Shown piece after piece: positions 8,899 to 22,483 of a stretch of 64,000 bases of DNA (positions within the stretch are counted from its first letter, which is position 1; the number at the start of each line of letters is the position of its first letter). The DNA comes from Deltaproteobacteria bacterium. GTDB taxonomy: Bacteria > Desulfobacterota > Desulfobulbia > Desulfobulbales > Desulfurivibrionaceae. The position numbers and the translations under genes are program-made. The stretch covers positions 51,073-115,072 of the forward strand of contig JAJZRO010000007.1 of assembly GCA_021802645.1 (NCBI GenBank), written 5' to 3'. The notes below the pieces were generated by a model. The model was not told the DNA's origin and did not search any database. It was given only the letters and a program-made list of their open reading frames with translations.

Positions 8899-9171
8899 TT
8901 GCAATTTGAGTGGGATGCGCGAAAGGCAGCGGTAAATACCAAGAAGCATGAAGTGTCGTTTCACGAGGCCGCGACGGTGTTTGCGGACCCAATGGCCCTT
9001 ACTTTCCATGATCCGGACCACTCCGCAACCGAGCATCGGTTTGTTACGTTTGGGTTGTCCCAGGCAAATCGTCTCCTGGTTGTGGCGCATACCGACCGCG
9101 GCAGAAGAATACGCATCATCAGCGCCCGTTTGATGACAAAAGGTGAGAGGAAAATCTATGAAGAAGAGTAA
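8899..9171 (+). CDS. brnT: BrnT-family (DUF497) toxin
   Basis: 90 aa reading FEWDARKAAVNTKKHEVSFHEAATVF...RIRIISARLMTKGERKIYEE, matching the BrnT pattern. TTG start is the first available in frame. Confidence 0.85.
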   Translation: MQFEWDARKAAVNTKKHEVSFHEAATVFADPMALTFHDPDHSATEHRFVTFGLSQANRLLVVAHTDRGRRIRIISARLMTKGERKIYEEE

Positions 9172-9397
9172 AAGTGACGAGCTTCGTTCTGAATACACTC
9201 GCGCTGACCTTGGGAAAGGGGTGCGGGGCAAACACCTCAAATCCTATCGGGCGGGAACTAATCTCGTGCTGCTGCGCCCCGATGTCGCGGCGGTTTTTCC
9301 TACGGATGAGGCGGTCAACAAGGCGTTGGGTTCCCTCATAGAAGTAGCCGAGAATGTCGGCGCGGCAACGCGCCCGACCAAGCCGCGTCAAAAGTGA
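9158..9397 (+). CDS. BrnA-like antitoxin (partner of BrnT)
   Basis: ATG 9158 overlaps the brnT 3' end by 14 nt, with a GGTGAGAGG RBS. Reads MKKSKSDELRSEYTRADLGKGVRGKH...LLRPDVAAVFPTDEAVNKAL, typical of small antitoxins downstream of BrnT. Confidence 0.65.
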   Translation: MKKSKSDELRSEYTRADLGKGVRGKHLKSYRAGTNLVLLRPDVAAVFPTDEAVNKALGSLIEVAENVGAATRPTKPRQK

Positions 9398-9532
9398 CAG
9401 GTTGGTTAGCTCGTTCTTCAGCCCACAAAGCACAAAGAAATAGGTAGTTATTTCCGCTGGTTCACTGATTCCATGCGGGGTAAGTCGATAACAACGTGAT
9501 GGCGTAATTTAACCAAAACAGGGAGGGGACCT

Positions 9533-9883
9533 ATGATATACCTTTTTGCCTCGCTGCTGCTTATGTACCTTGGCAGAAAGGTGGGTTGGGCGATTTCCAA
9601 GAAAGTCCTTTATCCAGCCCATGCCGCAATCGTTCTGCCCCTCTGTGTGGGGTGGGGAGCTATTGTTGCCCTACTGATATTGGCGCTGATTCGTTGGCAA
9701 GAGCCCCATATCATGCTCAAGATCATCATGGGATATGCTCTGGGGTGGTATGTAGCTATTCCGAACTTCGGGCTAATGGACGAGCGCACAATTCCGCCAT
9801 GGGAAAGGCAAAGGCATTTACATGTTTCCACTTTGCCATCCATCACGTATTTGCTGACGATAGCCATGTCTTTCGTGGCATAA
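9533..9883 (+). CDS. hypothetical small integral membrane protein
   Basis: 116 aa with 3-4 hydrophobic helices and a GGGAGGGGA RBS-like stretch before the ATG. It lies in a lower-GC stretch between two TA pairs. No family recognised. Confidence 0.5.
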   Translation: MIYLFASLLLMYLGRKVGWAISKKVLYPAHAAIVLPLCVGWGAIVALLILALIRWQEPHIMLKIIMGYALGWYVAIPNFGLMDERTIPPWERQRHLHVSTLPSITYLLTIAMSFVA

Positions 9884-9994
9884 AGGGCTACAGGCGTTTC
9901 CTGTTCATAGGGTTATTCCGGGGAGATATATCTAAAATCTCACGCCTTGACTTCCGGTTCGAATTTGGTACGTTAAAAAGACTGGAGGCGAACC

Positions 9995-10270
9995 ATGAAT
10001 ATCACAAACGACATCAAGCCCGTTACCTACCTCAAGTCCCGTGCGGCTGATCTGCTTGAGCAGATTAACGAGACGCATCGCCCGGTCATCATCACGCAGA
10101 ATGGGGAACCGCGAGCCGTGCTCCAAGACCCGCAGAGCTACGAGGCCATGCGCAACGCCATCGGCATCCTGAAGCTCGTTTCTCAAGGGGAGGCGGACAT
10201 CCGCTCTGGCAAAACGCTGGACCAGGATGTAGTGTTCGGTAAACTCGAAGAGATGCTGGCGAAGAAATGA
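9995..10270 (+). CDS. Phd/YefM-family antitoxin
   Basis: 91 aa reading KPVTYLKSRAADLLEQINETHRPVIITQNGEPRAVLQDPQSYE, the canonical Phd/YefM N-terminal domain. GGAGG RBS. Confidence 0.9.
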   Translation: MNITNDIKPVTYLKSRAADLLEQINETHRPVIITQNGEPRAVLQDPQSYEAMRNAIGILKLVSQGEADIRSGKTLDQDVVFGKLEEMLAKK

Positions 10271-10596
10271 AGCGGACCTACCGGGTGGTCTGGGCTGCGA
10301 TTGCCTACGACGATCTGCATGGAATTATCGAATACATTGCCCAGGACAGCCCGGCGAACGCCAGAAAAGTTCTGAAAACCATCAAGAGCAAGGCCGCGAC
10401 CCTGCACCTCTCGCCGCAGCGGGGGCGGGTGGTGCCGGAGTTGCAGGAACAGGGCATTGCCCACTACCGCGAACTCATTGTCACCCCGTGGCGTCTGATC
10501 TACCGGATTGCCGACGAGACGGTCTTGGTGCTCTCCGTCCTCGACAGCCGGCGGAACATCGAAGACCTCTTACTGGCGAGGCTGACAGGAGTATGA
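10267..10596 (+). CDS. ParE/RelE-family toxin
   Basis: 109 aa with ATGA overlap with the antitoxin stop. AYDDLHGIIEYIAQDSPANARKV...YRELIVTPWRLIYRIADETVLVLSVLDSRRN is ParE-like. Confidence 0.9.
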   Translation: MKRTYRVVWAAIAYDDLHGIIEYIAQDSPANARKVLKTIKSKAATLHLSPQRGRVVPELQEQGIAHYRELIVTPWRLIYRIADETVLVLSVLDSRRNIEDLLLARLTGV

Positions 10597-10862
10597 AAAA
10601 CAAAGGAATGAAGAGAGTTGGATTGCTGGTTGGTGGGGTTCTCTTGATCTGTGCCGGTTCCCCGCTGGCTGCCGTAGCGGCGGATAGCATTGTAGCCAAG
10701 GGCAGCCCGGCGCAGGCGGACATCTGCAACAAGGAATTGAAGTGGGGTGTTGTGAACTGCGACCGGGAATTCCGGCAGCATCAGGATACGCGGAAGCATG
10801 CCGACTGCCTGGCTGCGGTCCGCGCCAAATACGACACCTGCATGGACCCTGGCGCGAAGTAG
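10593..10862 (+). CDS. small secreted 4-cysteine protein (paralog A), unknown function
   Basis: 89 aa with a signal peptide (MKNKGMKRVGLLVGGVLLICAGSPLAAVAA). Mature part is KGSPAQADICNKELKWGVVNCDREFRQHQDTRKHADCLAAVRAKYDTCMDPGAK. The ATG overlaps the parE TGA (ATGA). Confidence 0.7.
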   Translation: MKNKGMKRVGLLVGGVLLICAGSPLAAVAADSIVAKGSPAQADICNKELKWGVVNCDREFRQHQDTRKHADCLAAVRAKYDTCMDPGAK

Positions 10863-10915
10863 CCGTTATCCTAGCTCCACCTATTGTCCTCCCTACAACA
10901 CCCAGGAGAAATCTC

Positions 10916-11476
10916 ATGCGTCAGACATACTGCGTGGTTGTGTTGCTTGCTTTCGCTTTGTCTTTTTTTTTGGTGAACCTTGCCCGTGCTGAAGAAAAGG
11001 GGCGAGGCTGCGATTGCGGTACAGTGGACTTTCACACTGGGATTGATCTGAACGCGCCTGCGGGTACGCCGATTCAGGCCGAAGATGATGGGGTCGTTGT
11101 GAAGGTCGAGGGAAACGAGCAGGCTGCAGTGTATTCGTCTACAGGAGGCTTCTGTGGGCGTTACATCGTGTTGCGGCACGATTATAAGAACGGCCGCTCG
11201 GTCTTTACTCGATACGCGCAACTCGGTGCAATAGCCGACAAACAGGGACGCGGCATCAAGGAAGGGCAAAAGATCAAGGCAGGTGAGCGGATTGGTACCA
11301 TTGGCAAGGCGGGACTGCTGCATTTCGAGGTCCGGCCCGTGGCGTCCAAGCCCAACGCCGAAACCAGTCTCTTCCATAAGGATGATCCCACCATGGCATG
11401 GACCAAGTATCAGCCGGTCAATCCGAATGATTTTGATTTCGATCGCTATGCTGGCCGTCAGCCTAAGAAGCAGTAA
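10916..11476 (+). CDS. secreted M23 (LytM-domain) peptidase-like protein with a non-canonical active site
   Basis: 186 aa with a signal peptide. The HxxxD motif is present (FHTGIDLNAPAGTPI) and the C-terminal motif reads GLLHFEVRP instead of HLHFE. The start was chosen at ATG 10916, inside the longer ORF. Confidence 0.8.
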   Translation: MRQTYCVVVLLAFALSFFLVNLARAEEKGRGCDCGTVDFHTGIDLNAPAGTPIQAEDDGVVVKVEGNEQAAVYSSTGGFCGRYIVLRHDYKNGRSVFTRYAQLGAIADKQGRGIKEGQKIKAGERIGTIGKAGLLHFEVRPVASKPNAETSLFHKDDPTMAWTKYQPVNPNDFDFDRYAGRQPKKQ

Positions 11477-11550
11477 CGCAGTTTTCTCAGAGCGAAAAGG
11501 GGGCGGATTTTTTTGAACATGCGCCAACACAAACAACAGCGGAGGGGAAG

Positions 11551-11820
11551 ATGAAAACTACATGCTCGAAAATGGTCGGTGCAATTCTTCTGGGGTATCT
11601 TGTGGGTGGCTTTTTTTCCCCGTTGGCAGCACGCGCCGCGAATGACGCAGTGGCCAAGGGCAGCCCGGCGCAGGCGGACATCTGCAACAAGGAATTAAAG
11701 TGGGGTGTTGTGAACTGCGACCGGGAATTCCGCGAGCATCAGGATACGCGCAAGCATGCCGACTGCCTGGCCGCGGTCCGGGCCAAGTACGACACCTGCA
11801 TGGACCCTGGTTCGAAATAG
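11551..11820 (+). CDS. small secreted 4-cysteine protein (paralog B)
   Basis: 89 aa with a different signal peptide but a near-identical mature region (AKGSPAQADICNKELKWGVVNCDREFREHQDTRKHADCLAAVRAKYDTCMDPGSK). DNA is nearly identical to 10690-10862. Confidence 0.75.
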   Translation: MKTTCSKMVGAILLGYLVGGFFSPLAARAANDAVAKGSPAQADICNKELKWGVVNCDREFREHQDTRKHADCLAAVRAKYDTCMDPGSK

Positions 11821-11887
11821 CGACCAGCCCCAGCACCCTCTTGGCCTTTCCATACGCCGGGGCTTCTACAGGAAAGGAGACGCAGCC

Positions 11888-12433
11888 ATGCAAGCACGCG
11901 GTCCACTTATGATCGAACATCGCCTGATTGAACGGATGCTTGTGGTCATCAAGGATGCTGTGGCGCAGATCGAATCGAGTCATGCGGTTGATCCGGTGTT
12001 CGTGGACACCGCGGTTGATTTCATCAAGGTGTATGCCGATCAGACGCATCATGGGAAGGAGGAAAAGATTTTTTTCCGGGAGCTGGGGAAGCGGGCGCTC
12101 TCCGACGCGGACCGGCGACTCATGAACGAATTGATCGACGAGCATGTGCTGGGGCGGCAGACAACAGCCGCACTTATTGCCGCCAATATGCGTTACCGCA
12201 ATGGGGATACGGCTGCCCTGACCGACATCGTCGAGAAACTCAAGACCCTGATCGAGTTCTATCCAAGGCATATCGCCAAGGAAGACAAGGTTTTCTTCCC
12301 GGCGGCGAGGGCCTACTTCACGGAAGAGGAAGACCAGGCCATGCTGGCGGAGTTCTGGGAGTTTGACCGCAAGATGATCCACGCGAAATACACGGCAGTG
12401 GTCGAAGGATTTGCCAAACGCCCTGGCGCATGA
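11888..12433 (+). CDS. hemerythrin-domain (HHE cation-binding) protein
   Basis: 181 aa from ATG 11888 (AGGAGA RBS). PLMIEHRLIERML..., YADQTHHGKEEKIFF and HIAKEDKVFFP are hemerythrin-like His/Glu repeats. Confidence 0.8.
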   Translation: MQARGPLMIEHRLIERMLVVIKDAVAQIESSHAVDPVFVDTAVDFIKVYADQTHHGKEEKIFFRELGKRALSDADRRLMNELIDEHVLGRQTTAALIAANMRYRNGDTAALTDIVEKLKTLIEFYPRHIAKEDKVFFPAARAYFTEEEDQAMLAEFWEFDRKMIHAKYTAVVEGFAKRPGA

Positions 12434-12516
12434 GGCCACAGAATTATCCGGCAATTACGTTTCTTTTCCCACCGGCCAGTCGCGCGGCCGGCACGCCCCG
12501 ATGACCAGCGGACTGC

Positions 12517-12554
12517 CGAAAAGAGGGACGAAGCCCATGCGGCTCCGTCCCTCT
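12517..12554 (-). terminator. hairpin terminator between the convergent hemerythrin and Gly-repeat genes
   Basis: AGAGGGACG (12522-12530) pairs with CGTCCCTCT (12546-12554). On the minus strand the stem is followed by a CTTTTCGG run. The loop is long (15 nt). Confidence 0.5.
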
Positions 12555-12575
12555 GCGGGGCGACAACTCAGCTCG

Positions 12576-13532
12576 TTACTTACTACCACCCCTGCCGTAT
12601 CCTTTCCCCTGGCCACCGCTGCCGCCAGCCGCACCGCCACCGCCGGTGACGATGCCGGCGCCCTGCCCGTGACTCCCCGCGCCAGGGGAAGAAACACCAC
12701 CGGCTGCACCGCCTGCCCCGGTCACGATGCCGCTCTTGCCCCCGGAACCACCGGCGCCGGTCACAATGCCGCTTTTACCCCCGGAGCCTTTTCCACCAAC
12801 GACATTGGCCCCGCCGCCTGCCCCGGTCACGATGCCGCTCTTGCCCCCGGAACCGCCAGCCCCGGTCACAATGCCGCTTTTACCGTGGCCGGTGGTGGTC
12901 GTCGTTGCGCCGGACGTGGTCGTGGTGCCGGTCGTGGTGGTTCCGGTTTTGATGGCGGAGGTGCGGGAGAGCGCGGTATTGGCGGTTTTCATGCTGCTGA
13001 TGACCGGGCCCAGTTTCGTGCCATAGGCTTGGGCGATCTGGCCCCAGCCCATGCCGCTCGCCCGCATTTGCAGCACGCCTTGCGTCTGCTGCCCGTCAGA
13101 GGTGAGGGTGCCACCCATCATCGCCGCCTGGGTCTGCTGGGCGGTGGGGTTGGTGATGCCGGCGGCGGTGAGCTGCTGCTTGGCCAGCGCCATGGAAATG
13201 TAGGCCTCGCCGTTCCCCATTTTGCCGGTGGGTGGCGTGAAGGTCGTGGTGGAGATGGAACCGTCCGTCGCCTGCGAGGTCAGCGTTATTTCCTTGCCGC
13301 TCCGCAGCCCGCTTGCAAGTGCTTGGGAATTCTCCTCACCGTAGAAGCTGCTGAAATCGGCCGCCGTCCTGTTGGTGACCGTCGTCTGGCCCTTGGACGT
13401 CGCGTAGCGGTCCATCCGGGTGGCCTGGGTTGTCAGAGCCTTGTTGCTGTCCGCCGCCCGGGCGGCGCCGGCCGCCACACCACCGAGCAAAAGAGTCCCC
13501 GCCATGAGAATCACAACGACTTTCTTCTTCAT
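12576..13532 (-). CDS. secreted protein with a Thr-rich linker and C-terminal GKSGIVTGAGG repeats (copy 1), unknown function
   Basis: Start at ATG 13532 (GGAGGTC RBS) with signal peptide MKKKVVVILMAGTLLLGGVAAGAARA. A ~180-aa N-terminal region contains GMGWGQIAQAYGTKLGPVISSMK, followed by a poly-Thr tract, 11-aa Gly-rich repeats and the tail GQGKGYGRGGSK. Confidence 0.8.
   Translation of the reverse strand: MKKKVVVILMAGTLLLGGVAAGAARAADSNKALTTQATRMDRYATSKGQTTVTNRTAADFSSFYGEENSQALASGLRSGKEITLTSQATDGSISTTTFTPPTGKMGNGEAYISMALAKQQLTAAGITNPTAQQTQAAMMGGTLTSDGQQTQGVLQMRASGMGWGQIAQAYGTKLGPVISSMKTANTALSRTSAIKTGTTTTGTTTTSGATTTTTGHGKSGIVTGAGGSGGKSGIVTGAGGGANVVGGKGSGGKSGIVTGAGGSGGKSGIVTGAGGAAGGVSSPGAGSHGQGAGIVTGGGGAAGGSGGQGKGYGRGGSK
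12640..12892 (-). repeat. in-frame 33-nt tandem repeats encoding G-K-S-G-I-V-T-G-A-G-G units
   Basis: The plus strand shows reiterated CCGGTCAC(G/A)ATGCCGCT(C/T)TT(G/A)CCCCCGGA units. This gives four full GKSGIVTGAGG units plus a degenerate AGIVTGGGG unit in the protein. Confidence 0.85.
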
Positions 13533-13611
13533 TTTTGACCTCCTGGGTTCCCCCATTGATTGTCCCGGTCCCTAGAATCCCGAACCAACCCGGTACGGTC
13601 GCTATGCCGGA

Positions 13612-14025
13612 TCAACTGGTTACTTGGCCGTTCAATGCCTTTTCAGTCTGCATGATAATCTCGACTGCGGTGGCGGAATCCATCACCACTTTTCTTGCCG
13701 TGACGCGCATGCGTGTCGTATTCGGACTGATGCACTCCAGCTCCACATTGATGTTCCGGTCCGGTGTCTGGGCTGTGATCTCTTCGCCGCCATTCATTTT
13801 TTCGATGCCGTTGACCTTGATGGCCATGCGTTTCAGGGCGGCCAGGGTGGCTTTTTTCACCTTGGGTAGGGGTTCGGTAAAGGTTTTGTAGGCAATGCCG
13901 CTCAAGGTCTGGCCAACCCCCGCGCCAGCCCCGACGCCCAGCAGGGTCAGTGAAATGGGATCGCAGCCGGAAAGCAGGAACAGCCATATTCCAAGAACGG
14001 CGACCCGGATCGTTGTTTGTCGCAT
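13612..14025 (-). CDS. DUF3568-family lipoprotein (copy 1)
   Basis: 137 aa from ATG 14025 with lipobox LLSGC. GVGAGAGVGQTLSGIAYKTFTEPLPKVKKATLAAL...TTRMRVTARK...SATAVEIIMQTEKAL matches my memory of DUF3568. It lies 80 nt upstream of the Gly-repeat gene on the same strand. Confidence 0.75.
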   Translation of the reverse strand: MRQTTIRVAVLGIWLFLLSGCDPISLTLLGVGAGAGVGQTLSGIAYKTFTEPLPKVKKATLAALKRMAIKVNGIEKMNGGEEITAQTPDRNINVELECISPNTTRMRVTARKVVMDSATAVEIIMQTEKALNGQVTS

Positions 14026-14313
14026 TATTATACCATCCAACAAGTGATTCAGGGATCATGACATCGAGACGAGACCAATCTATCAGCAACTCACGCCATG
14101 TTACACCAAAAAAACAGGGGGGACATCTATGGGAACACTCGGAAAGGGTGTCCCTCCTTTTTGTCGGCGGAGGGAAAGGGGTGTGTCGCTGCCCCGGCCC
14201 TTCCATTGACGCCACCGCTGTTTCTGCTTATTGCAAATAGTGTCGGCAGAATTGTCGGGCCGATGCGTCTGCGCCGCAACAATGGGCCAGTTTCCGGAGA
14301 GGGAGAAAAGGCG

Positions 14314-14438
14314 ATGGCGGTTGATGCTGTCAGCAATATCAATTCCGTTCGGACAACGGTTCTGCAGGGCCAAACCCGGACGACCGTTCCCGTGGCCACC
14401 TCCCCTCTGAGTATCGTTTCCGGCCCTGTTGCCGTAGC
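14314..14438 (+). pseudogene. duplicated 5' fragment of the FlaG-like gene (first ~42 codons) at the duplication junction
   Basis: ATGGCGGTTGATGCTGTCAGCAATATCAATTCCGTT...GTTGCCGTAGCG aligns with 16412-16535 (MAVNDIGNINSVLATVLQGQSRSTVPLATSPLNVV...). Similarity stops at about 14438. Confidence 0.65.
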
Positions 14439-14440
14439 GG

Positions 14441-14668
14441 AGATGGTGCGGCCCTGGCCGATATTGTCGAGAAGCTCAAGACCCTGGTCGAGTTCTATTG
14501 CAAACACATTGCCAAGGAAGACAAGGTCTTCTTTCCTGCCTCGCGCGCCTATTTTTCCGAAGAGGAAGACCAGGCCTGCTGGCGGAGTTCTGGGAGTTTG
14601 ACCACAAGATGATCCACGCGCAATACACGGCAGTGGTCGAAGGATTTACCAAACGCCCTGGAGCAGGA
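14441..14668 (+). pseudogene. duplicated 3' fragment of the hemerythrin gene, frameshifted
   Basis: Aligns with ~12205-12433 (DIVEKLKTL.EFY..HIAKEDKVFFP...EEEDQA / LAEFWEFD.KMIHA.YTAVVEGF.KRPGA). A 1-nt deletion (CAGGCCATGCTGG becomes CAGGCCTGCTGG) splits it into two frames, and there is no start codon. Confidence 0.8.
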
Positions 14669-14755
14669 GGCCACAGAATTATTCGGCAATTGCGTTTCTT
14701 TCCCGCACCGGTCAACCGCGCGGCCGGCAATGCCCCGATGAACCAGCGGACTGCC

Positions 14756-14791
14756 GAAAAGAGGGACGAAACCATGCGGCTCCGTCCCTCT
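14756..14791 (-). terminator. duplicated copy of the hairpin terminator downstream of Gly-repeat gene copy 2
   Basis: AGAGGGACG (14760-14768) pairs with CGTCCCTCT (14783-14791), the same structure as at 12517-12554. Confidence 0.45.
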
Positions 14792-14811
14792 TCGGGGCGA
14801 TATTCAGCTCG

Positions 14812-15675
14812 TTACCTGCCACCCCTGCCGGAGCCTTTTCCCTCGCCACCGCCAGCGGCACCAGCCGCACCGCCACCACCGGTGACGATGCCGGCACCCT
14901 GCCCGTGACTCCCCGCGCCAGGGGAAGAAACACCACCGGCTGCACCGCCTGCCCCGGTCACGATGCCGCTCTTGCCGCCAGCGCCTTTTGCGCTGCCCCC
15001 GGCACCGGCGCCGCCAGCGCCGGTCACAATCCCGCTCTTGCCGGCGCCGGTGGTGGTTTTACCTGTCGCTGTCGTCGGTGTGGTCCTGGTTCTGATGGTG
15101 GCGGTCCGGGAGAGCGCGGTGTTGGCGGCCTTCATGCTGCTGATGACCGGGCCCAGCTTGGTGCCATAGGCTTGGGCAATCTGGCCCCAGCCCATGCCGC
15201 TCGCCCGCATTTGCAGCACACCTTGCACCGGCTGTCCGTCAGAGGTGAACGTGCCGCCCATCATCGCCGCCTGGGTCTGCTGGGCAGTGGGGTTGGTGAT
15301 GCCGGCGGCGGTGAGCTGCTGCTGGGCCAGCGCCATGGAAATGTAGACCTCGCCGTTCCCCATTTTGCCGGTGGGTGGGGTGAAGGTTGTGGTGGAGATG
15401 GAGCCGTCCGTCGCCTGCGAGGTCAGCGTGATCGCGCTGCCGCTGCGCAGCCCGGTGGCAAGCGCTTGGGAATTCTCCTGGCCGTAAAAGCTGCTGAAAT
15501 CGGTTGCCGTCCTGTTGGTGACCAAGGTCTGGCCCTTGGACGTCGCGTAGCGGTCCATCCGGACGGCCTGGGTTGTCAGAGTCTTGTCGCTGTCCGCCGC
15601 CCGCACCACGCCAGTCGCCACACCGCCCAGCCAAAGAGTCCCCGCCATGAGAATTACAGCGACTTTCTTCTTCAT
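14812..15675 (-). CDS. secreted Thr/Gly-repeat protein (copy 2)
   Basis: Start at ATG 15675 with the same RBS and signal peptide as copy 1 (MKKKVAVILMAGTLWLGGVATGVVRA) and a collinear N-terminal region. It has a shorter Thr linker and fewer GKSGIVTGAGG units (287 aa versus 318 aa). Confidence 0.8.
   Translation of the reverse strand: MKKKVAVILMAGTLWLGGVATGVVRAADSDKTLTTQAVRMDRYATSKGQTLVTNRTATDFSSFYGQENSQALATGLRSGSAITLTSQATDGSISTTTFTPPTGKMGNGEVYISMALAQQQLTAAGITNPTAQQTQAAMMGGTFTSDGQPVQGVLQMRASGMGWGQIAQAYGTKLGPVISSMKAANTALSRTATIRTRTTPTTATGKTTTGAGKSGIVTGAGGAGAGGSAKGAGGKSGIVTGAGGAAGGVSSPGAGSHGQGAGIVTGGGGAAGAAGGGEGKGSGRGGR
14876..15050 (-). repeat. shorter 33-nt Gly-repeat array in copy 2
   Basis: Same CCGGTCAC(G/A)AT(G/C)CCGCTCTTGCC unit as in copy 1, but only about three units. 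Confidence 0.75.
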
Positions 15676-15762
15676 CTTTGACCTCCTGGGTTCCCCCATT
15701 GATTGTCCCGGTCCCTAGAATCCCGAACCAACGCGGTACGTCGCGATGCCGGATCAATAGCT

Positions 15763-16170
15763 TTATTGGGCGCCCAACGCCTTTTCGGTCTGCATGATGA
15801 TCTCGACCGCCGTGGCGGAATCCAACAGGGCCGTTTTCCTCGCCGTGACGCGCATGCGTGTCGTATTTGGGCTGAGTGACTCCAGCTCGATTTCGATATC
15901 TCGATCCGCTGCCTGAGCCGAGATATTTTCGCCGCTTTCCACTTTTTGGGTGGTGCCGACCTTGATGGCCATGCGGTTGAGCGCGGTGAGCGCCGCTTTT
16001 TTCACCTTGGGGAGGGGTTCGGTAAAGGTCTTGTAGGCAATGCCGCCCAAGGTCTGGTAAACTCCCGCGCCGGCCCCGACGCCGAACAAGGTCAGCGTAA
16101 TAGGATCGCAGCCGGAAAGGAGGAAGAGGCATCCCCCCAGAACAACTATTCGAATCGATGCATAACGCAT
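15763..16170 (-). CDS. DUF3568-family lipoprotein (copy 2)
   Basis: 135 aa with lipobox LLSGC, collinear with copy 1 at roughly three quarters identity by eye. Confidence 0.75.
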   Translation of the reverse strand: MRYASIRIVVLGGCLFLLSGCDPITLTLFGVGAGAGVYQTLGGIAYKTFTEPLPKVKKAALTALNRMAIKVGTTQKVESGENISAQAADRDIEIELESLSPNTTRMRVTARKTALLDSATAVEIIMQTEKALGAQ

Positions 16171-16312
16171 TGCCGTGTCACCTGGCTGGGGATTGAAGGA
16201 TTGCTACAGAATAAATTTATCAAAAACCCAAGCTGTTTTATATCAAAATAAAGAAGTGCTTGATAACCGGCTGATTCCATTCATGGTAATCCGTTTTCTC
16301 ATTCCCCTGCCA

Positions 16313-16341
16313 TTGACGCCACCGCCATTCCTGTTTAATTT
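16313..16341 (+). promoter_or_regulatory. candidate sigma-70 promoter for the FlaG-like gene (TTGACG-N17-TAATTT)
   Basis: TTGACG at 16313-16318 and TAATTT at 16336-16341. The CCATTGACGCCACCGC block is conserved in the duplicated copy at ~14204 (there TTGACG-N17-TATTGC). Confidence 0.35.
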
Positions 16342-16411
16342 AATAAAATAAGAATAAAGATATCAGGCCATGTGTCCGCTCCGCGAAAGGGAAGGGCGGT
16401 GGAGAACAGAA

Positions 16412-17542
16412 ATGGCGGTGAACGATATCGGTAACATCAATTCGGTGTTGGCAACGGTTCTGCAGGGCCAAAGCCGGAGCACCGTTCCCTTGGCCACTTC
16501 TCCGTTGAATGTCGTTACGAATCCCGTTGCCGTCGCGACTGCCGTAACGCAGAATCTAACCCCCGCCCAACAGGCGGCCGTGCTGGGCACCGAAGCGGTG
16601 CAAACCTTGAACCTGCAGCCGTCCGCTCCGACCGACCCCCTGCTGGCCACCGGCACCGCCCCGGATATGACAACCGTTCTGGAATCGCCAGGGCTGAGCC
16701 CGGCTCAGGAGGCGGCTCTGGCGGTGAACCAAACGGTGCAGGCCGCCATCCAGCCCCAAAACTTGACCCCTGCCCAACAGGCGGCTTTGACCGTCAATCA
16801 GGCGACGCAAGCCCTGGCCACCCAACAGACGCCGGCCGAAACTGCGGCGGCCACCGCGATTACCACGCCAACGCCGGCCCCGGCCCCAGTGGAGACGACG
16901 CTGGCTGCCGCCGGAATCGCAGGCGGAGGGGGGGCGACCGCCACCACACCGGCCGGATCGACGGCAGTTTCAGCCGTCACCACAGCGGCTCCCACCGTGG
17001 TGCCCGCCACGCCCACTACCGCGGCAACGACGGTGGCGGCTCCCGCAGAAGCAATGCCTGCCCAGCCCACCGTCGCCCAACCGATTCCGTATGCCAATGC
17101 CTTTGCGGTCTATGAGGTCAGGAATCCCACCCCACCCCCGCGGGAGCCGGCAGCGATCCGGAAAGAAGTGCATCCAGCCGTGCCGGTCGGTCGGGTGCGG
17201 CCGGTTGATCCGCTGGTTTTGCGGCAGGAATGGGAGAAAAGGAAAAGAGAGAAACGCCAGGGGAGCGGCCAGGCCGTGGCCGCCGCGCCTCGTCCGCCGT
17301 TGGCGGAAAAGGCCATCCGGGATTTGGTCCGCCAGGCCAATGAAACGCTGGCCGCCAGCGGCGTGCCCCTACACCTGGTTCTCTCTCAGAGTGCCGAAGG
17401 GTTCGCCCTGGACGTCTATGAATGTCTGAATGATGCGATGTGCGAGATGACACAGGAGGTGCCGCTTGATCTCAACAACCTCATGACCATTCTGGATAAT
17501 CTGGAGCACGAAAGCGGCATCATCATCAACATCAACACCTAG
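16412..17542 (+). CDS. FlaG-family protein with a long Ala/Thr/Pro-rich low-complexity insertion
   Basis: 376 aa from ATG 16412. The C-terminal ~70 aa (GVPLHLVLSQSAEGFALDVYECLNDAMCEMTQEVPLDLNNLMTILDNLEHESGIIININT) fit the FlaG pattern (xFxvdee.g..vvkv.d..tgevirqiP.e.ll.l...l....Gl.vd). The middle contains NLTPAQQAA-type repeats and poly-A/T/P. Confidence 0.6.
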   Translation: MAVNDIGNINSVLATVLQGQSRSTVPLATSPLNVVTNPVAVATAVTQNLTPAQQAAVLGTEAVQTLNLQPSAPTDPLLATGTAPDMTTVLESPGLSPAQEAALAVNQTVQAAIQPQNLTPAQQAALTVNQATQALATQQTPAETAAATAITTPTPAPAPVETTLAAAGIAGGGGATATTPAGSTAVSAVTTAAPTVVPATPTTAATTVAAPAEAMPAQPTVAQPIPYANAFAVYEVRNPTPPPREPAAIRKEVHPAVPVGRVRPVDPLVLRQEWEKRKREKRQGSGQAVAAAPRPPLAEKAIRDLVRQANETLAASGVPLHLVLSQSAEGFALDVYECLNDAMCEMTQEVPLDLNNLMTILDNLEHESGIIININT

Positions 17543-17647
17543 GGGAGCAACGGTCCCCGCCCAGAAGGGCAGCCCCGTTCTTGTGGGCCATTCGTTGCCC
17601 TCCGGGGCTACCGCCGGGAAAGCGGGCTGTTCCGCTGTTTCGCGTCT

Positions 17648-17860
17648 TCAGCCCGTGGCGATCTTTTTGCGCTGGACTGCCAGTCGCGCGGCCTGTAACG
17701 CCTCGATGGCCAGCGAGCTGCCGCGTATGGGCGGCACCTCGGTACCGAGAATGGACTCCACCACCTCCCGCACCACCAGTTCCGATTCGCCGAGGCGGCT
17801 CGCCAGGGTGGCGAGCCTGGTGATCTGCCGGGTCGCGATATCCTGATACGCCAGGTCGAT
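17648..17860 (-). pseudogene. truncated duplicate of the 3' end of the yihY/brkB-family gene (C-terminal winged-helix region with an in-frame ~33-codon deletion)
   Basis: IDLAYQDIATRQITRLATLASRLGESELVVREVVES/ILGTEVPPIRGSSLAIEALQAARLAVQRKKIATG matches the last residues of the 20784..22178 product, minus LVKAGMLRRVAEAGRHYVLGVAVEKLDPVEVVE. DNA is clearly homologous to 20784-21098. Confidence 0.6.
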
Positions 17861-18127
17861 GCTAGTAAGGGGCGGATACGGCACCAGGCCTTGAACAGTA
17901 AATTCCCTCATGTCAGGTTGCGGGCGCGCTTTCGCGGGAAGAAGTGATTTTTCAAGACCTGACTTCACCGGGCGCGGGTAGGCCTGCGTGTTGCCTGTCA
18001 AGATCGGCGACCCTGCCGCAAGAAAATCACCAGCGCAGTCCACATTTATGTGCGACGGTCGTAGCGGAATGTGCTAAAACCTTTCGAAGTAATGCATGTT
18101 CTTTCACCTTCATGCTCAAGTTTCGCC

Positions 18128-20650
18128 ATGGCCGATCAGTTATCATACCGCGTGACCGCCGACGAGGCGAACCTTCTCAACCTGATGCAGGAAGCGGTTT
18201 ACCTCATCGATTCGGAGCAGAATCTCCTTTTCCTTAACCGGCAAGTGGAACAGCGGCTGGGATTTTCAAACAGCGACGTGGCGGGGCGCAAATGCTTCGA
18301 ACTCTTCGGCCGCGGCGGATGTTGCCGCGATCGTTGCCCTGTTGCCAGGATCATCCATTCCCCCCACCGCAACGTCAAACACCAGGTCACTCTCCAGCCC
18401 AAGGAAGGACCACCGCAGACCTTCCTCTTTGATGCCCAGCCCTTTGTCAAGGAAGGGGTGATCCTCGGCACCCTCATTTTTTTGCACAACAGCTCGCCGG
18501 ACCGTCATAGCAACCCCCTCGCCTCCCAGGATGGAGGCCCCGATCAAGAACGTATCAGGGAAACCATTCACGGCGCCGGTTTACGGGATATTTTCAACCT
18601 TGCCGACCTGGAACGGATGGTCTCCGTCTTTGCCGAAATCCACGGCATCACCTCCGCCATCTTCGACGATCGGATGGAGATGGTGACCGACGTCTATAAT
18701 TTCTCCGACTCCTGCCTCATGGTCAGGAGCAGAAAGGAAGGACTGGCCAGATGCCTTCAGTCGGACGAACGGCTGCTGCACTCCGCCCTGGAGAACAGAC
18801 CCTCCACCCTCCGCTGTATGAGCGCCGGCCTGATGGATGCCGTGGCCCCGATTGTTATCGAAGGCAAACGTCTTGGTACCTGGGCTCTGGGCCAGGTCAT
18901 GGTAGACGGCGAGTTCGACGAGAAACGCTTCCGTGCCTTTGCCGAAGAGATCGGTCTAGTGCCGGATGCCTACCTTGCCGCCCTTGAAAAACAAACACGC
19001 ATGCCCATGGCCAAGATGGAAAAACTGGCCGAATTCCTGGTGCTGCTTACCAAGATGCTGGGCCAGGTGGGGCTCAACCACCTCGTCCTCAATCGCCTCC
19101 ACGAACAACTCCAAAGGGAAAAAGAGCTGCTTGCCGTGACCCTGCGCAGCATCGGCGACGGCATTGTCACCTTGGATGCCCAAGGCAAGGTCCTGCTCCT
19201 GAACAGCATTGCCGAAAAAATGACGGGCTGGCCAAGCGAAGAGGCCATCGGCCGCGGCGTGGAGGAGGTGGTGCATCTTGTCCATCCCCACGACAAGGGC
19301 CAACGGATCATGCCGCAAAATATTGCCGAACTCTTTTACGACCAGGCGCAACTGAATTCCCTGTGTCCCCTTCTCATTGCCAGGTCTGGGCGGGAATATT
19401 CCGTCGTCCCTTCTCTTTCCGAGATATCGCACCTCAACGGGGAGAAGGGTGGCCAGGTCCTCGTGCTGCACGACATAACCGAACTGAAGCAGCTGCAGGA
19501 AAACCTGCTCCAGTCCCAGAAGATGGAGGCCATCGGCACGCTGGCGGGCGGCATTGCCCACGACTTCAACAACATGCTCAACGCCATTCTGGGTTACGCC
19601 CAGCTCTCCCTGCGGGCGCATGATCTCCCGAACGCACTGCGGGAAAACCTCCAACAGATCGTCAAGGCAGGGACGCGGGCGGCCAATCTGGTGCAGCAGA
19701 TTCTCACCTTCAGTCGGAAAAACGAGCAGCAGCGCAAGGTGCTCTTCCTGCAACCCCTGATCAAGGAATCCCTCGCCTTTTTGCGCAGCACCCTCCCGGC
19801 CAACATCGTGGTGCGGCAGAACGTCGACGGCCAATGCGGTGCCGTTCTGGCCAATCCGACGCAGATCCATCAGGTGATCATGAATCTTTGCGCCAATGCC
19901 AGGTATGCCATGCTCGACAACGGCGGCATCCTCGGGATCGAGCTGGAGGAGGCAACCCTCGACGGGGCATCGGCCAACGCCGTTGCCGGACTCCAGGCAG
20001 GGCGCTATGCGCGGCTCACCGTCCGGGATAACGGACAGGGGATGGACAGCCTTACGCAGGCCCGAATCTTCGAGCCCTATTTCACCACCAAACCCATCGG
20101 GCAGGGCACCGGTCTCGGTCTTTCGACGGTGCATGGCATTGTCAAGGCCAACCTCGGGGCCATCACCGTTCAGAGCTCTCCTGGCCAGGGCACGGAATTC
20201 ACCATCTACTTTCCCATTGCCCAGGGGACGGAGCGGGCAGAGCTCACCGAAAAAACTGCCGATGCCTTCCACAAGGTCGGCGGCAAGGTGCTCCTTGTTG
20301 ATGACGAGGAAATGCTGGTCCAGCTCGCCATCAGCGAACTCACGGCCCTCGGCTGCGAGGTCTCGGCCTTTACCGATAGCGAGATGGCCCTTGCCGCTTT
20401 CGTCGCCGCCCCGGGAAAGTTCGACGCACTGATAACCGATCAGACCATGCCAAAACTCTCCGGCACCCAGCTTGCCGCCAAGGTCCTGGCCATGAGCCCC
20501 GATCTGCCGGTCATCCTCACTACCGGCTTCAGCGAGACCGTAGACGCGGAAAAAGCCAAGGCCATGGGGATTCGTGAATTCCTGGAGAAACCGGTTTCCC
20601 TTGCGGACTTTTGCCAGGCGCTCTCCAGGGTGTTACCGCCCCGCTGTTGA
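18128..20650 (+). CDS. hybrid sensor histidine kinase/response regulator (Cys-containing PAS, PocR, PAS, HisKA, HATPase_c, REC)
   Basis: PocR-like block (...SCLMVRSRKEGLARCLQSDERLL...LRCMSAGLMDAVAPIVIEGKRLGTWALGQV), then PAS (LRSIGDGIVTLDAQGKVLLLN), the H-box GGIAHDFNNML, N/G boxes (MNLCANARYAM, DNGQGM, GTGLGLS) and REC (VLLVDDE...ITDQTMPKLSG). The start is uncertain, with GTG 18071, ATG 18092 or ATG 18128 all possible. Confidence 0.88.
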   Translation: MADQLSYRVTADEANLLNLMQEAVYLIDSEQNLLFLNRQVEQRLGFSNSDVAGRKCFELFGRGGCCRDRCPVARIIHSPHRNVKHQVTLQPKEGPPQTFLFDAQPFVKEGVILGTLIFLHNSSPDRHSNPLASQDGGPDQERIRETIHGAGLRDIFNLADLERMVSVFAEIHGITSAIFDDRMEMVTDVYNFSDSCLMVRSRKEGLARCLQSDERLLHSALENRPSTLRCMSAGLMDAVAPIVIEGKRLGTWALGQVMVDGEFDEKRFRAFAEEIGLVPDAYLAALEKQTRMPMAKMEKLAEFLVLLTKMLGQVGLNHLVLNRLHEQLQREKELLAVTLRSIGDGIVTLDAQGKVLLLNSIAEKMTGWPSEEAIGRGVEEVVHLVHPHDKGQRIMPQNIAELFYDQAQLNSLCPLLIARSGREYSVVPSLSEISHLNGEKGGQVLVLHDITELKQLQENLLQSQKMEAIGTLAGGIAHDFNNMLNAILGYAQLSLRAHDLPNALRENLQQIVKAGTRAANLVQQILTFSRKNEQQRKVLFLQPLIKESLAFLRSTLPANIVVRQNVDGQCGAVLANPTQIHQVIMNLCANARYAMLDNGGILGIELEEATLDGASANAVAGLQAGRYARLTVRDNGQGMDSLTQARIFEPYFTTKPIGQGTGLGLSTVHGIVKANLGAITVQSSPGQGTEFTIYFPIAQGTERAELTEKTADAFHKVGGKVLLVDDEEMLVQLAISELTALGCEVSAFTDSEMALAAFVAAPGKFDALITDQTMPKLSGTQLAAKVLAMSPDLPVILTTGFSETVDAEKAKAMGIREFLEKPVSLADFCQALSRVLPPRC

Positions 20651-20783
20651 ACTTAATGGCCAGACGCAGAGCCCGGTGGGAGGGGAGAGACGGCGTCAGG
20701 ATGTGAAAAGTAAGTCTTCTCGTGCCAAGGCGAGAGGTTGCGGGAAGACCCGACCCTTACCTTGCCATGGTACGAAACAGCCG

Positions 20784-22178: not shown

Positions 22179-22483
22179 GTAATTCTTTCCTTCCCAGGAG
22201 GCCGTGCAGCATCCGTTGTGCGGGGCTGCGGCGGCTGATTCTGCTCGCTGTTTTGGTCGCGTTTTTCGAAGACTTTCCTTTTGAGTGCTTGCTGGGGGGC
22301 CTTCACGCAGCATGGCGGGGAAGGACCGCGACGATCCCGCCGACCATCTTGGGGCATTGGCCGATAATATGCCCTCTGCGTGCGGCAGATCACCGATGCC
22401 CGCCCGTATTGTAGCAGCAGCGAGAGTGATTGGACAACCCTTTCTGGTGGGCGGCCAAGAGCCAAGCCAGGCCGGCGAACCAT

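What the first reader, a model, noticed from the sequence alone, without database searches (positions are those of the whole stretch)
12200..16540. Tandem ~2.1-2.2 kb segmental duplication with a readable chimeric junction
Two collinear units are visible, at about 12205-14438 and 14441-16535. Each unit carries a hemerythrin 3' part, a hairpin terminator, a Gly-repeat secreted protein gene (-), a DUF3568 lipoprotein gene (-), a divergent promoter region with the conserved CCATTGACGCCACCGC block, and the first ~42 codons of the FlaG-like gene. At about 14438-14442 the FlaG-like 5' fragment is fused directly to the middle of a second hemerythrin copy, which is the signature of a head-to-tail tandem duplication. 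The junction copies are decaying: there is a 1-nt deletion in the hemerythrin fragment and the chimeric ORF reads out of frame. Both copies of the two-gene module remain intact, although they have diverged (lipoproteins only about 3/4 identical by eye). This argues that the duplication is old and that both copies are maintained by selection.
Basis: seen in the sequence. Interest (0 to 1): 0.7.

Follow-up and report, generated by a model that had tools for sequence, protein, structure and literature searches.

The report
Old tandem gene duplication, partly re-homogenised
A 2.2-kb stretch carrying a lipoprotein gene and a glycine-rich secreted-protein gene was copied head-to-tail long ago; both copies still work and still swap sequence, which makes it a clean but ordinary example of bacterial gene duplication.

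Summary
Window 12205-14440 and 14441-16537 are two collinear direct copies. BLASTN aligns 1824 nt at 81.6% identity (E=0), plus 126 nt at 76%.

Each unit carries:
- a hemerythrin 3' part
- a strong terminator hairpin
- a Gly-repeat secreted-protein gene (-)
- a DUF3568 lipoprotein gene (-)
- a promoter/leader region
- the first 42 codons of the next (+) gene

At 14437-14441 that 5' fragment is fused out of frame to mid-hemerythrin. The hemerythrin fragment also has a 1-nt deletion and a lost stop codon.

It is not an assembly artefact. Three independent assemblies (98.9-99.97% identical) span the junction. The longest exact run shared by the two units is 80 nt.

Relatives have one unit. L008 has the single-unit order hemerythrin-NosL-Gly-Lip-'FlaG-like'.

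Both gene pairs are under purifying selection (dN/dS 0.31 and 0.25).

New here: the units are a mosaic. The edges and the lipoprotein genes are about as diverged as orthologues of other taxa. The hemerythrin 3' end and the Gly gene show shared history and strain-level patches of paralogue-derived bases. That is gene conversion.

The 'FlaG-like' label is barely supported.

Verdict: real, well read by the first stage, and a textbook process. Interest is low to moderate.

The parts
11888..12433 (+). Complete hemerythrin (HHE) gene, 181 aa. Its last ~228 nt (12205-12433) are the proximal end of unit 1.
   Evidence: PF01814 E=3.5e-14. Orthologue in L008 at 83% aa identity.
12205..14440 (.). Duplication unit 1 (2236 nt).
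   Evidence: Self-BLASTN and global alignment.
14441..16537 (.). Duplication unit 2 (2097 nt).
12518..12554 (-). Intrinsic terminator of the Lip1-Gly1 operon: 14-bp GC-rich stem followed by UUUU.
   Evidence: RNA fold, z=-3.4, 0/200 shuffles fold as well.
12576..13532 (-). Gly1, a secreted protein of 318 aa. It has a signal peptide, a conserved ~160-aa domain, a Thr-rich linker and 5 GxSGIVTGAGG-type repeats.
   Evidence: ORF. Family of >=799 homologues with no Pfam domain. AF2 gives pLDDT>90 for residues 30-190 and a disordered tail. Repeat count.
13612..14025 (-). Lip1, a DUF3568 lipoprotein of 137 aa (lipobox LLSGC), the first gene of the operon.
   Evidence: PF12092 30.2 bits, cutoff 23.2.
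14026..14313 (.). Divergent promoter/leader region 1. It holds the conserved -35-like block CCATTGACGCCACCGC at 14203-14218 and the leader block GGCCGATGCGTCTGC.
   Evidence: Alignment with region 2 and with L008/L009. Only ~50-60% identical to region 2 outside these blocks.
14314..14440 (+). Truncated 5' fragment (42 codons) of the downstream gene, a relic at the distal end of unit 1.
   Evidence: 76% nt identity to 16412-16537. tblastn 67% over aa 1-45.
14437..14441 (.). Novel junction. The 5' fragment is fused out of frame to hemerythrin codon ~106, with at most 2-3 nt (GG/CGG) of microhomology.
   Evidence: Three-way displays. Frames: 14314 mod 3 = 1 versus 14442 mod 3 = 0.
14441..14668 (+). 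Hemerythrin 3' pseudogene fragment. It has a 1-nt deletion between 14576 and 14577, and its stop codon TGA has become GGA.
14314..14601 (+). Chimeric 95-codon ORF: 42 codons of the downstream gene plus 53 out-of-frame codons. Gene callers extend it to 167 aa (14098-14601). Probably not a real gene.
14756..14791 (-). Intrinsic terminator of the Lip2-Gly2 operon.
   Evidence: RNA fold, z=-3.75.
14812..15675 (-). Gly2, a secreted protein of 287 aa with 3 repeats.
15763..16170 (-). Lip2, a DUF3568 lipoprotein of 135 aa.
   Evidence: PF12092 35.7 bits.
16171..16411 (.). Divergent promoter/leader region 2, with the block at 16310-16325.
16412..17542 (+). It has a low-complexity A/T/P-rich middle and a conserved C-terminal ~140-aa domain with a D-C...C motif. 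Its first 126 nt are the distal end of unit 2.
   Evidence: No Pfam or NCBIfam hit. 98 relatives by exhaustive HMMER, of which 3 of 37 scanned touch PF03646 at E>=7.6e-4.
12331..13600 (.). Approximate gene-conversion (re-homogenised) tract in unit 1; its partner is about 14566-15745. The left breakpoint at ~12330/14566 is sharp. The right limit is gradual.
   Evidence: Identity profile. Outgroup polarisation. Fisher tests. Strain variants equal to the paralogue's base.

Best explanation
This is a genuine, ancient head-to-tail tandem duplication of a ~2.2-kb segment.

**Origin.** One illegitimate (microhomology-poor) recombination event between misaligned sister chromosomes joined codon 42 of the gene downstream of the lipoprotein operon to codon ~106 of the hemerythrin gene. 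That copied everything in between: the hemerythrin 3' end, the terminator, the Gly-repeat secreted-protein gene, the DUF3568 lipoprotein gene and the divergent promoter/leader region. The event left two non-functional gene fragments at the junction. (The structure is shown; the mechanism of origin is inferred.)

**Age.** The event is about as old as the split from the nearest sequenced relatives, which have one unit.

**Selection and divergence.**
- Both Lip-Gly operons have been kept under purifying selection.
- The lipoproteins, the promoter regions and the Gly repeat numbers have diverged. This points to specialisation by expression and/or surface properties (inferred).

**Gene conversion.** RecA-type gene conversion between the copies has repeatedly re-homogenised the central part, from the hemerythrin 3' end through the Gly gene to the Gly-Lip spacer. 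It is still going on among strains.

**Junction relics (inferred).** The relics probably persist because they carry elements still in use: the terminator of operon 2 and the promoter region of operon 1.
For: **Structure**
- E=0 collinear self-alignment and a chimeric junction.
- Complete hemerythrin and downstream genes lie at the outer ends.

**Not an artefact**
- L001, L002 and L003 come from separate assemblies (99.97%, 98.9% and 99.3% identical). All span the junction with the same architecture.
- The units differ at 19% of aligned sites. Their longest shared exact run is 80 nt, shorter than the k=141 suggested by the k141 contig names.

**Single unit in relatives**
- L008 has downstream gene, Lip, Gly, NosL, hemerythrin.
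- L005/L006 are syntenic through CobS, CobT and other genes, with one Lip-Gly pair.
- About 70 of 80 genome loci have exactly one Lip immediately upstream of one Gly.

**Selection**
- NG86 gives Lip1/Lip2 dN/dS 0.31 and Gly1/Gly2 0.25. Orthologue pairs give 0.18-0.37.

**Age**
- Lip1/Lip2 dS is 0.53, against 0.50-0.67 between taxa.
- The 5' fragment gives 12, 11 and 12 changes on the three branches. The left part of the hemerythrin fragment gives 17, 10 and 4.

**Conversion**
- The right part of the hemerythrin fragment gives 0, 4 and 16. The contrast with the left part has p=3e-6.
- In Gly, the internal branch has 84 changes against 77 copy-specific ones. In Lip the numbers are 13 and 46 (p=6e-5).
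- In strain L002, 22 of 59 variants equal the paralogue's base. In L003 it is 14 of 29, including a run of 10 in 15463-15563. The chance expectation is about 6.5% (p<1e-9).

**Regulatory elements kept**
- Terminators are retained in both copies.
- The promoter and leader blocks are conserved with L008/L009.
Against: - No closer relative than ~74% aa identity was found. The duplication therefore cannot be bracketed on a tree, and dS near 0.5 is imprecise (about 100 synonymous sites in Lip).
- The pseudogene fragments have not evolved faster than their functional counterparts. That is odd for long-neutral DNA. It could mean a younger event combined with import of diverged DNA into parts of the locus.
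- The strain comparisons rest on metagenome assemblies, which could in principle blend paralogues or strains.
- Specialisation of the two operons is inferred only from sequence divergence. There are no expression or functional data.
- The function of the Lip-Gly operon is unknown.
Confidence: 0.8

Rival explanations
1. Assembly artefact: a single Lip-Gly unit was expanded, or two strain variants were stitched in tandem by the assembler.
For: Several metagenome contigs break inside or next to the region. L001 and L004 end at window 16859. L002 ends in Gly1 and L003 in Lip1.
Against: - Three independent assemblies of slightly different strains all contain the junction and the same order.
- The copies are only ~81% identical, with no shared run longer than 80 nt.
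- The copies differ far more than the strains do (about 1%).
- The junction joins two different genes. Stitching of strain variants cannot produce that.
Confidence: 0.02
2. Recent duplication followed by rapid divergence. The event would be young, as the 93-98% identical central tract suggests. The lipoprotein genes, promoter regions and edge fragments would then have diverged quickly through positive or relaxed selection, or through replacement of segments by homologous recombination with diverged relatives.
For: - The central tract differs by only 2-7%.
- In 12331-12433 the two copies share 16 changes relative to L008.
- In the left hemerythrin segment, fragment 2 is nearer to L008 (14 differences) than hem1 is (21). 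In the promoter blocks, region 1 is nearer to L008 than region 2. Both hint at imported or unevenly evolving segments.
Against: - Deep divergence also affects synonymous sites (Lip dS 0.53) and non-coding or pseudogene DNA on both edges of the unit. Selection cannot explain that.
- It would need several independent imports, one at each edge and one in Lip, instead of one process.
- That one process, conversion, is seen directly among strains.
- The 14 vs 21 asymmetry is not significant (p=0.25).
Confidence: 0.13
3. The second Lip-Gly cassette was acquired horizontally and inserted next to the resident one (xenologue rather than paralogue).
For: - Lip1 and Lip2 are each slightly closer to the L005 orthologue (79-80% aa) than to each other (74%).
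- The Lip-Gly pair behaves as a portable two-gene module found in many phyla.
Against: - The copied segment includes local context that a foreign cassette would not bring: the 3' end of the neighbouring hemerythrin gene on one side, and the promoter, leader and first 42 codons of the neighbouring downstream gene on the other.
- The Gly genes group together against L008 and L005.
- No mobile-element genes lie in or next to the units.
Confidence: 0.05

Closest known systems
Bacterial tandem (segmental) duplications formed by illegitimate or short-homology recombination and kept by selection. This is the duplication-amplification-divergence framework described for Salmonella and E. coli by Roth, Andersson, Hughes and colleagues (cited from my own knowledge).
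   Same: - Head-to-tail copies with no spacer.
- One novel join point fusing the end of the unit to its start.
- Truncated genes at the join and intact genes at the outer ends.
- At most 2-3 nt of homology at the join.
   Different: Laboratory duplications are usually large, identical and lost at high frequency. This one is small (2.2 kb), fixed in every strain sampled, and ~19% diverged. That divergence largely protects it from loss by homologous recombination.
Gene conversion (concerted evolution) between bacterial paralogues, for example tuf A/B, rRNA operons, and pilin or opa families (cited from my own knowledge).
   Same: - Mosaic identity with a sharp breakpoint.
- Different coalescence depth in neighbouring segments.
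- Patches in one strain that carry the other copy's bases.
   Different: Conversion here is partial and patchy. It does not keep the copies identical, and there is no sign of a programmed variation system (no silent cassettes, no invertase).
DUF3568 (PF12092) lipoprotein family
   Same: Both Lip genes score above the Pfam gathering threshold and have a lipobox.
   Different: The family has no known function; only five papers in the library mention it. Its near-obligate pairing with the Gly-repeat secreted protein (about 70 of 80 loci) is not documented in anything I could find.
   Same: The C-terminal domain has a similar length. 3 of 37 relatives give weak PF03646 hits, best E=7.6e-4.
   Different: - The window protein itself gives no hit even at E<=10.
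- It is 376 aa with a long A/T/P-rich region and a conserved D-C...C motif.
- None of the genes examined in window 1-32000 is flagellar.

Membership tests
Head-to-tail tandem duplication | Two adjacent, collinear, directly repeated units, far beyond chance similarity. | tested here: met
   BLASTN 1824 nt at 81.6%, E=0, plus 126 nt at 76%. The units abut at 14440/14441.
Head-to-tail tandem duplication | A single novel junction joins the distal end of the unit to its proximal start, with intact copies of the interrupted genes at the outer ends. | tested here: met
   The 5' fragment of the downstream gene (14314-14440) is fused to hemerythrin codon ~106 (14441 onward). The complete genes are at 11888-12433 and 16412-17542.
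Head-to-tail tandem duplication | The unduplicated arrangement exists in relatives. | tested here: met
   L008-L011 have downstream gene, Lip, Gly, (NosL), hemerythrin with one unit. L005/L006/L013, L007 and L012 also have one unit.
Head-to-tail tandem duplication | Physically present in the genome, not produced by the assembler. | tested here: met
   Three independent assemblies span the junction. The longest shared exact run is 80 nt.
Head-to-tail tandem duplication | Short or micro-homology at the join, as the signature of the formation mechanism. | tested here: inconclusive
   Only GG/CGG can be assigned to both parents. A GTTRCCG similarity lies 5-12 nt upstream. Later substitutions blur the original join.
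Gene conversion between paralogues | Neighbouring segments of the repeat have significantly different coalescence depth relative to an outgroup. | tested here: met
   Hemerythrin fragment: left part 17/10/4 versus right part 0/4/16, p=3e-6. Gly 84:77 versus Lip 13:46, p=6e-5.
Gene conversion between paralogues | Polymorphisms in one copy carry the base of the other copy more often than chance, and in runs. | tested here: met
   L002 22/59 and L003 14/29 against ~6.5% expected. L003 has a run of 10 in 15463-15563. Caveat: these are metagenome assemblies.
Retention of both copies by purifying selection | Intact ORFs and expression signals, with dN/dS well below 1 between the copies. | tested here: met
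   Both pairs are full length with signal peptide or lipobox, ribosome-binding site and terminator. dN/dS is 0.31 (Lip) and 0.25 (Gly). Expression was not tested.
DUF3568 (PF12092) | Score above the Pfam gathering threshold. | tested here: met
   30.2 and 35.7 bits against a cutoff of 23.2.
Hemerythrin HHE domain (PF01814) | Score above the Pfam gathering threshold. | tested here: met
   53.8 bits against a cutoff of 25.3.
FlaG (PF03646) | Match to the family profile. | tested here: not met
   No hit for the whole protein or its C-terminal domain at E<=10. Only 3 of 37 relatives hit, at E>=7.6e-4.

The most novel reading that the evidence does not exclude
The Lip-Gly pair is a DUF3568 lipoprotein plus a secreted protein. 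The secreted protein has a confidently predicted domain with no match in the PDB, and a GKSGIVTGAGG-repeat tail. The reading is that this pair is a widespread, uncharacterised cell-envelope module. This species would then have turned one copy into two functionally specialised systems, with diverged lipoprotein surfaces, repeat numbers and promoters.

On this reading the junction 'relics' are not decaying. They have been co-opted: a live promoter and leader drive a new short chimeric transcript or ORF, and the hemerythrin fragment provides the terminator of operon 2. That would explain why the relics have changed no faster than the functional genes.
Probability: 0.15. Interest if true: 0.45.

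Novelty: new member of a known kind. Interest (0 to 1): 0.27.

Why it matters
This is a tidy natural example of the full life history of a bacterial tandem duplication. The join point is readable. The event is fixed in the species. Both copies are under purifying selection, the regulatory regions have diverged, and gene conversion is partial and ongoing. It also shows that sequence identity along such a repeat is not a clock.

Beyond that it changes nothing fundamental. The most useful by-product is the observation that a DUF3568 lipoprotein gene and a Gly-repeat secreted-protein gene form a conserved two-gene operon in many Betaproteobacteria, Binatia and 'Deltaproteobacteria' MAGs. Neither has a known function or a known fold relative, which makes the pair a candidate for experimental characterisation.

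Tried and rejected
- **Exact look-up of Gly1.** With my start codon it found nothing. Lip2 worked.
- **Family searches.** Pfam and NCBIfam give nothing for the Gly proteins or the downstream gene.
- **Fold search.** Foldseek of the Gly1 model against the PDB gives no match better than E=2, so there is no functional lead.
- **Word-indexed homologue search.** For the downstream gene's C-terminal domain it found only one protein. The exhaustive search found 98, but only a faint FlaG link.
- **Rfam.** No RNA family in 9000-22000.
- **Consensus promoter scan.** No sigma-70 site in 11800-16700. The promoter assignment rests only on conserved TTGACG-containing blocks.
- **Junction-specific pattern.** Absent from the JGI metagenome contigs, so no more distant carriers of the same junction were found.
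- **Genome collection.** It does not contain this species; the best hit is 66%. Neighbours are labelled Sulfuricella sp. and 'Deltaproteobacteria bacterium' MAGs.
- **Cluster look-up.** It gave no names.
- **Considered and rejected.** Assembly artefact, horizontally acquired second cassette, and a programmed variation system. The last was rejected because there are no recombinase genes or inverted repeats of note.
- **Technical failure.** One script call failed for technical reasons.

Full report
**1. The observation**

A self-BLASTN of window 9000-20000 gives one dominant off-diagonal alignment: 12212-14026 against 14448-16171 (1824 nt, 81.6% identity, 18 gap openings, E=0). A second collinear piece is 14314-14439 against 16412-16537 (126 nt, 76%, E=1e-20). 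The repeat finder shows the same blocks in register, with spacing shrinking from 2236 to 2143 to 2098 nt because of indels. A global alignment fixes the units at 12205/6-14440 and 14441/2-16537.

**2. Contents of each unit**

- The complete hemerythrin gene is 11888-12433 (PF01814, E=3.5e-14).
- The two lipoproteins are 13612-14025 and 15763-16170, on the - strand. Both are DUF3568 above the gathering score and have an LLSGC lipobox.
- The two Gly-rich genes are 12576-13532 and 14812-15675, on the - strand. They start at an ATG six bases after AGGAGG. They encode 318 and 287 aa with a signal peptide, and 5 versus 3 GxSGIVTGAGG-type repeats.
- On the - strand each Gly gene is followed by a 14-bp GC-rich hairpin and UUUU (z=-3.4 and -3.75).
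- The CCATTGACGCCACCGC block is at 14203-14218 and 16310-16325.

**3. The junction**

- Homology to the downstream gene runs to 14439/40. Homology to hemerythrin starts at 14439-14442 and corresponds to 12203-12206.
- Only GG/CGG can be assigned to both parents, so the join is microhomology-poor.
- The downstream-gene frame (14314, mod 3 = 1) and the hemerythrin frame (14442, mod 3 = 0) differ, so the fusion is out of frame. The chimeric ORF ends at 14601.
- The hemerythrin fragment still reads DGAALADIVEKLKTLVEFYCKHIAKEDKVFFPASRAYFSEEEDQA. It then loses one base (A12341, between 14576 and 14577) and continues in another frame as LLAEFWEFDHKMIHAQYTAVVEGFTKRPGAGG. The stop codon has changed to GGA.

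**4. Not an artefact**

- An exact look-up of Lip2 returned four contigs from separate assemblies.
- L001 (ENA ERZ27237050), L002 (NCBI GCA_027341005.1) and L003 (ENA ERZ27237541) are 99.97%, 98.9% and 99.3% identical to the window. All contain the junction and the same gene order.
- The units differ at 19% of aligned sites. They share no exact run longer than 80 nt, which is below the k=141 suggested by the k141 contig names.

**5. Relatives have one unit**

- The Gly protein belongs to a large family without a Pfam model: at least 799 hits, mostly Betaproteobacteria, Binatia and 'Deltaproteobacteria' MAGs.
- In about 70 of the 80 genome loci fetched, a DUF3568 gene lies directly upstream of the Gly gene. 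With few exceptions there is one of each. It is therefore a conserved two-gene operon.
- The closest loci are single-unit.
  - L008-L011 (Logan) have downstream gene, Lip, Gly, NosL, hemerythrin. This is the orthologous locus.
  - L005/L006/L013 share CobS, CobT, AP endonuclease, a lactamase-B-fold gene, M16 peptidase and PNPase synteny (80-95% aa) but have one Lip-Gly pair.
- The window's own species is not in the genome collection. The best match is 66%.

**6. Selection and age**

Nei-Gojobori estimates:

| Pair | dS | dN | dN/dS |
|---|---|---|---|
| Lip1/Lip2 | 0.53 | 0.165 | 0.31 |
| Gly1/Gly2 | 0.33 | 0.084 | 0.25 |
| Orthologue pairs, Lip | 0.50-0.89 | - | 0.18-0.27 |
| Orthologue pairs, Gly | 0.35-1.0 | - | 0.25-0.37 |

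Both copies are therefore constrained. The lipoprotein paralogues are as far apart as orthologues of different taxa.

**7. Mosaic structure and gene conversion**

- *Identity profile.*
  - 78-83% in 12208-12328.
  - A sharp step to 93-98% from ~12330 to 12740.
  - Indels in the repeat region.
  - About 92% in the Gly N-terminal domain.
  - 97-98% in the Gly-Lip spacer.
  - 70-93% in Lip.
  - About 50-60% in the promoter region.
  - About 80% in the 5' fragment.
- *Polarisation with L008.* Counts are copy-1 branch / copy-2 branch / outgroup branch.
  - Left hemerythrin segment (126 sites): 17 / 10 / 4.
  - Right hemerythrin segment (102 sites): 0 / 4 / 16. The contrast with the left segment has Fisher p=3e-6.
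  - 5' fragment: 12 / 11 / 12.
- *Outgroups L008 and L005 together.* The Gly genes have 84 changes on the internal branch against 77 copy-specific ones. The Lip genes have 13 against 46 (p=6e-5).
- *Strain comparison.*
  - L002 differs from the window at 79 sites, 30 of them in Gly1. 22 of 59 variants at paralogue-aligned sites equal the paralogue's base.
  - In L003 the figure is 14 of 29, including ten consecutive variants in 15463-15563.
  - Chance expectation is about 6.5% (p<1e-9).
- *Simplest reading.* An old duplication whose centre has been, and still is being, homogenised by gene conversion.

**8. The relics**

- Derived changes in the pseudogene fragments are spread evenly over codon positions (6/4/8 and 3/4/4). 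This fits loss of coding constraint.
- They are not more numerous than those in the functional copies.
- The promoter and leader blocks upstream of the truncated fragment are, if anything, closer to L008 than those upstream of the complete gene.
- I take this as a hint that the relics persist because they overlap working signals: the promoter region of operon 1 and the terminator of operon 2. This is inference.

**9. Function of the module**

- AlphaFold2 with a 23-sequence alignment gives a confident helical-plus-hairpin domain for residues 30-190 (pLDDT>90) and a disordered Gly-rich tail.
- Foldseek against the PDB finds nothing better than E=2.
- DUF3568 has no functional literature.
- The function is therefore unknown. 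A lipoprotein-anchored or lipoprotein-assisted secreted envelope protein is my guess from the signal sequences only.

**10. The 'FlaG-like' label**

- The protein has no Pfam or NCBIfam hit even at E<=10.
- An exhaustive HMMER search finds 98 relatives, many of them ~140-aa proteins.
- Only 3 of 37 scanned touch PF03646, best E=7.6e-4.
- None of the genes examined in window 1-32000 is flagellar.

**11. Verdict**

The addition is the gene-conversion mosaic, and the correction is the weak FlaG label. The process is textbook, so interest is low to moderate.

Noticed in passing
window 10658-10863 and 11616-11821: A second local duplication (206 nt, 88% identity). Two copies of an 89-aa Cys-containing secreted-protein gene (about 10593-10862 and 11551-11820) flank an M23 peptidase gene (10919-11476). 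No family hit for the small protein.
   Followed up: partly
window 17651-17861 and 20799-21099: A fragment of the C-terminal coding region of the BrkB-family gene (20784-22313, - strand) is repeated just downstream of the 'FlaG-like' gene. Two blocks are 94-96% identical at the DNA level, and tblastn covers aa 406-509. As a result the PocR-PAS hybrid histidine kinase gene (18071-20650) is bracketed by direct repeats. In the relative L008, BrkB directly adjoins the 'FlaG-like' gene. The kinase therefore looks like a later insertion or rearrangement with its own relic.
   Followed up: partly
91 loci L001-L091 (e.g. L005 3723-5107, L007 7466-8858, L008 6089-7475): A DUF3568 lipoprotein gene lies immediately upstream of the Gly-repeat secreted-protein gene in about 70 of 80 genome loci from several phyla. 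This is an undescribed conserved two-gene operon. The secreted protein's N-terminal domain is confidently predicted but has no PDB fold match.
   Followed up: partly
window 12709-12779 and 12814-12884: An internal 71-nt direct repeat (96% identity, 105-nt period) inside Gly1 encodes extra GKSGIVTGAGG units. Gly1 has 5 repeats and Gly2 has 3, so repeat number changes independently within each copy.
   Followed up: partly
window 14240-14290 and 16350-16395; L008/L009 leader: A leader block (GGCCGATGCGTCTGCtCCGCgAAA) between the promoter-like block and the start codon of the 'FlaG-like' gene is conserved between this species and L008/L009. It is even kept upstream of the truncated copy. It may be a regulatory 5'-UTR element. 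No Rfam family matches.
   Followed up: no
window 9995-10596: A PhdYeFM/ParE toxin-antitoxin pair sits between the conserved CobS block and the variable region. The relative L005 has a MazE/PIN pair at the same place. This stretch looks like a hotspot for gene turnover.
   Followed up: no
L048 6987-8606, L077 7573-9122, L035, L060, L064: A few distant genomes carry an extra lipoprotein or Gly-domain gene next to the pair, at low identity. Duplication of parts of this module has therefore happened more than once.
   Followed up: no
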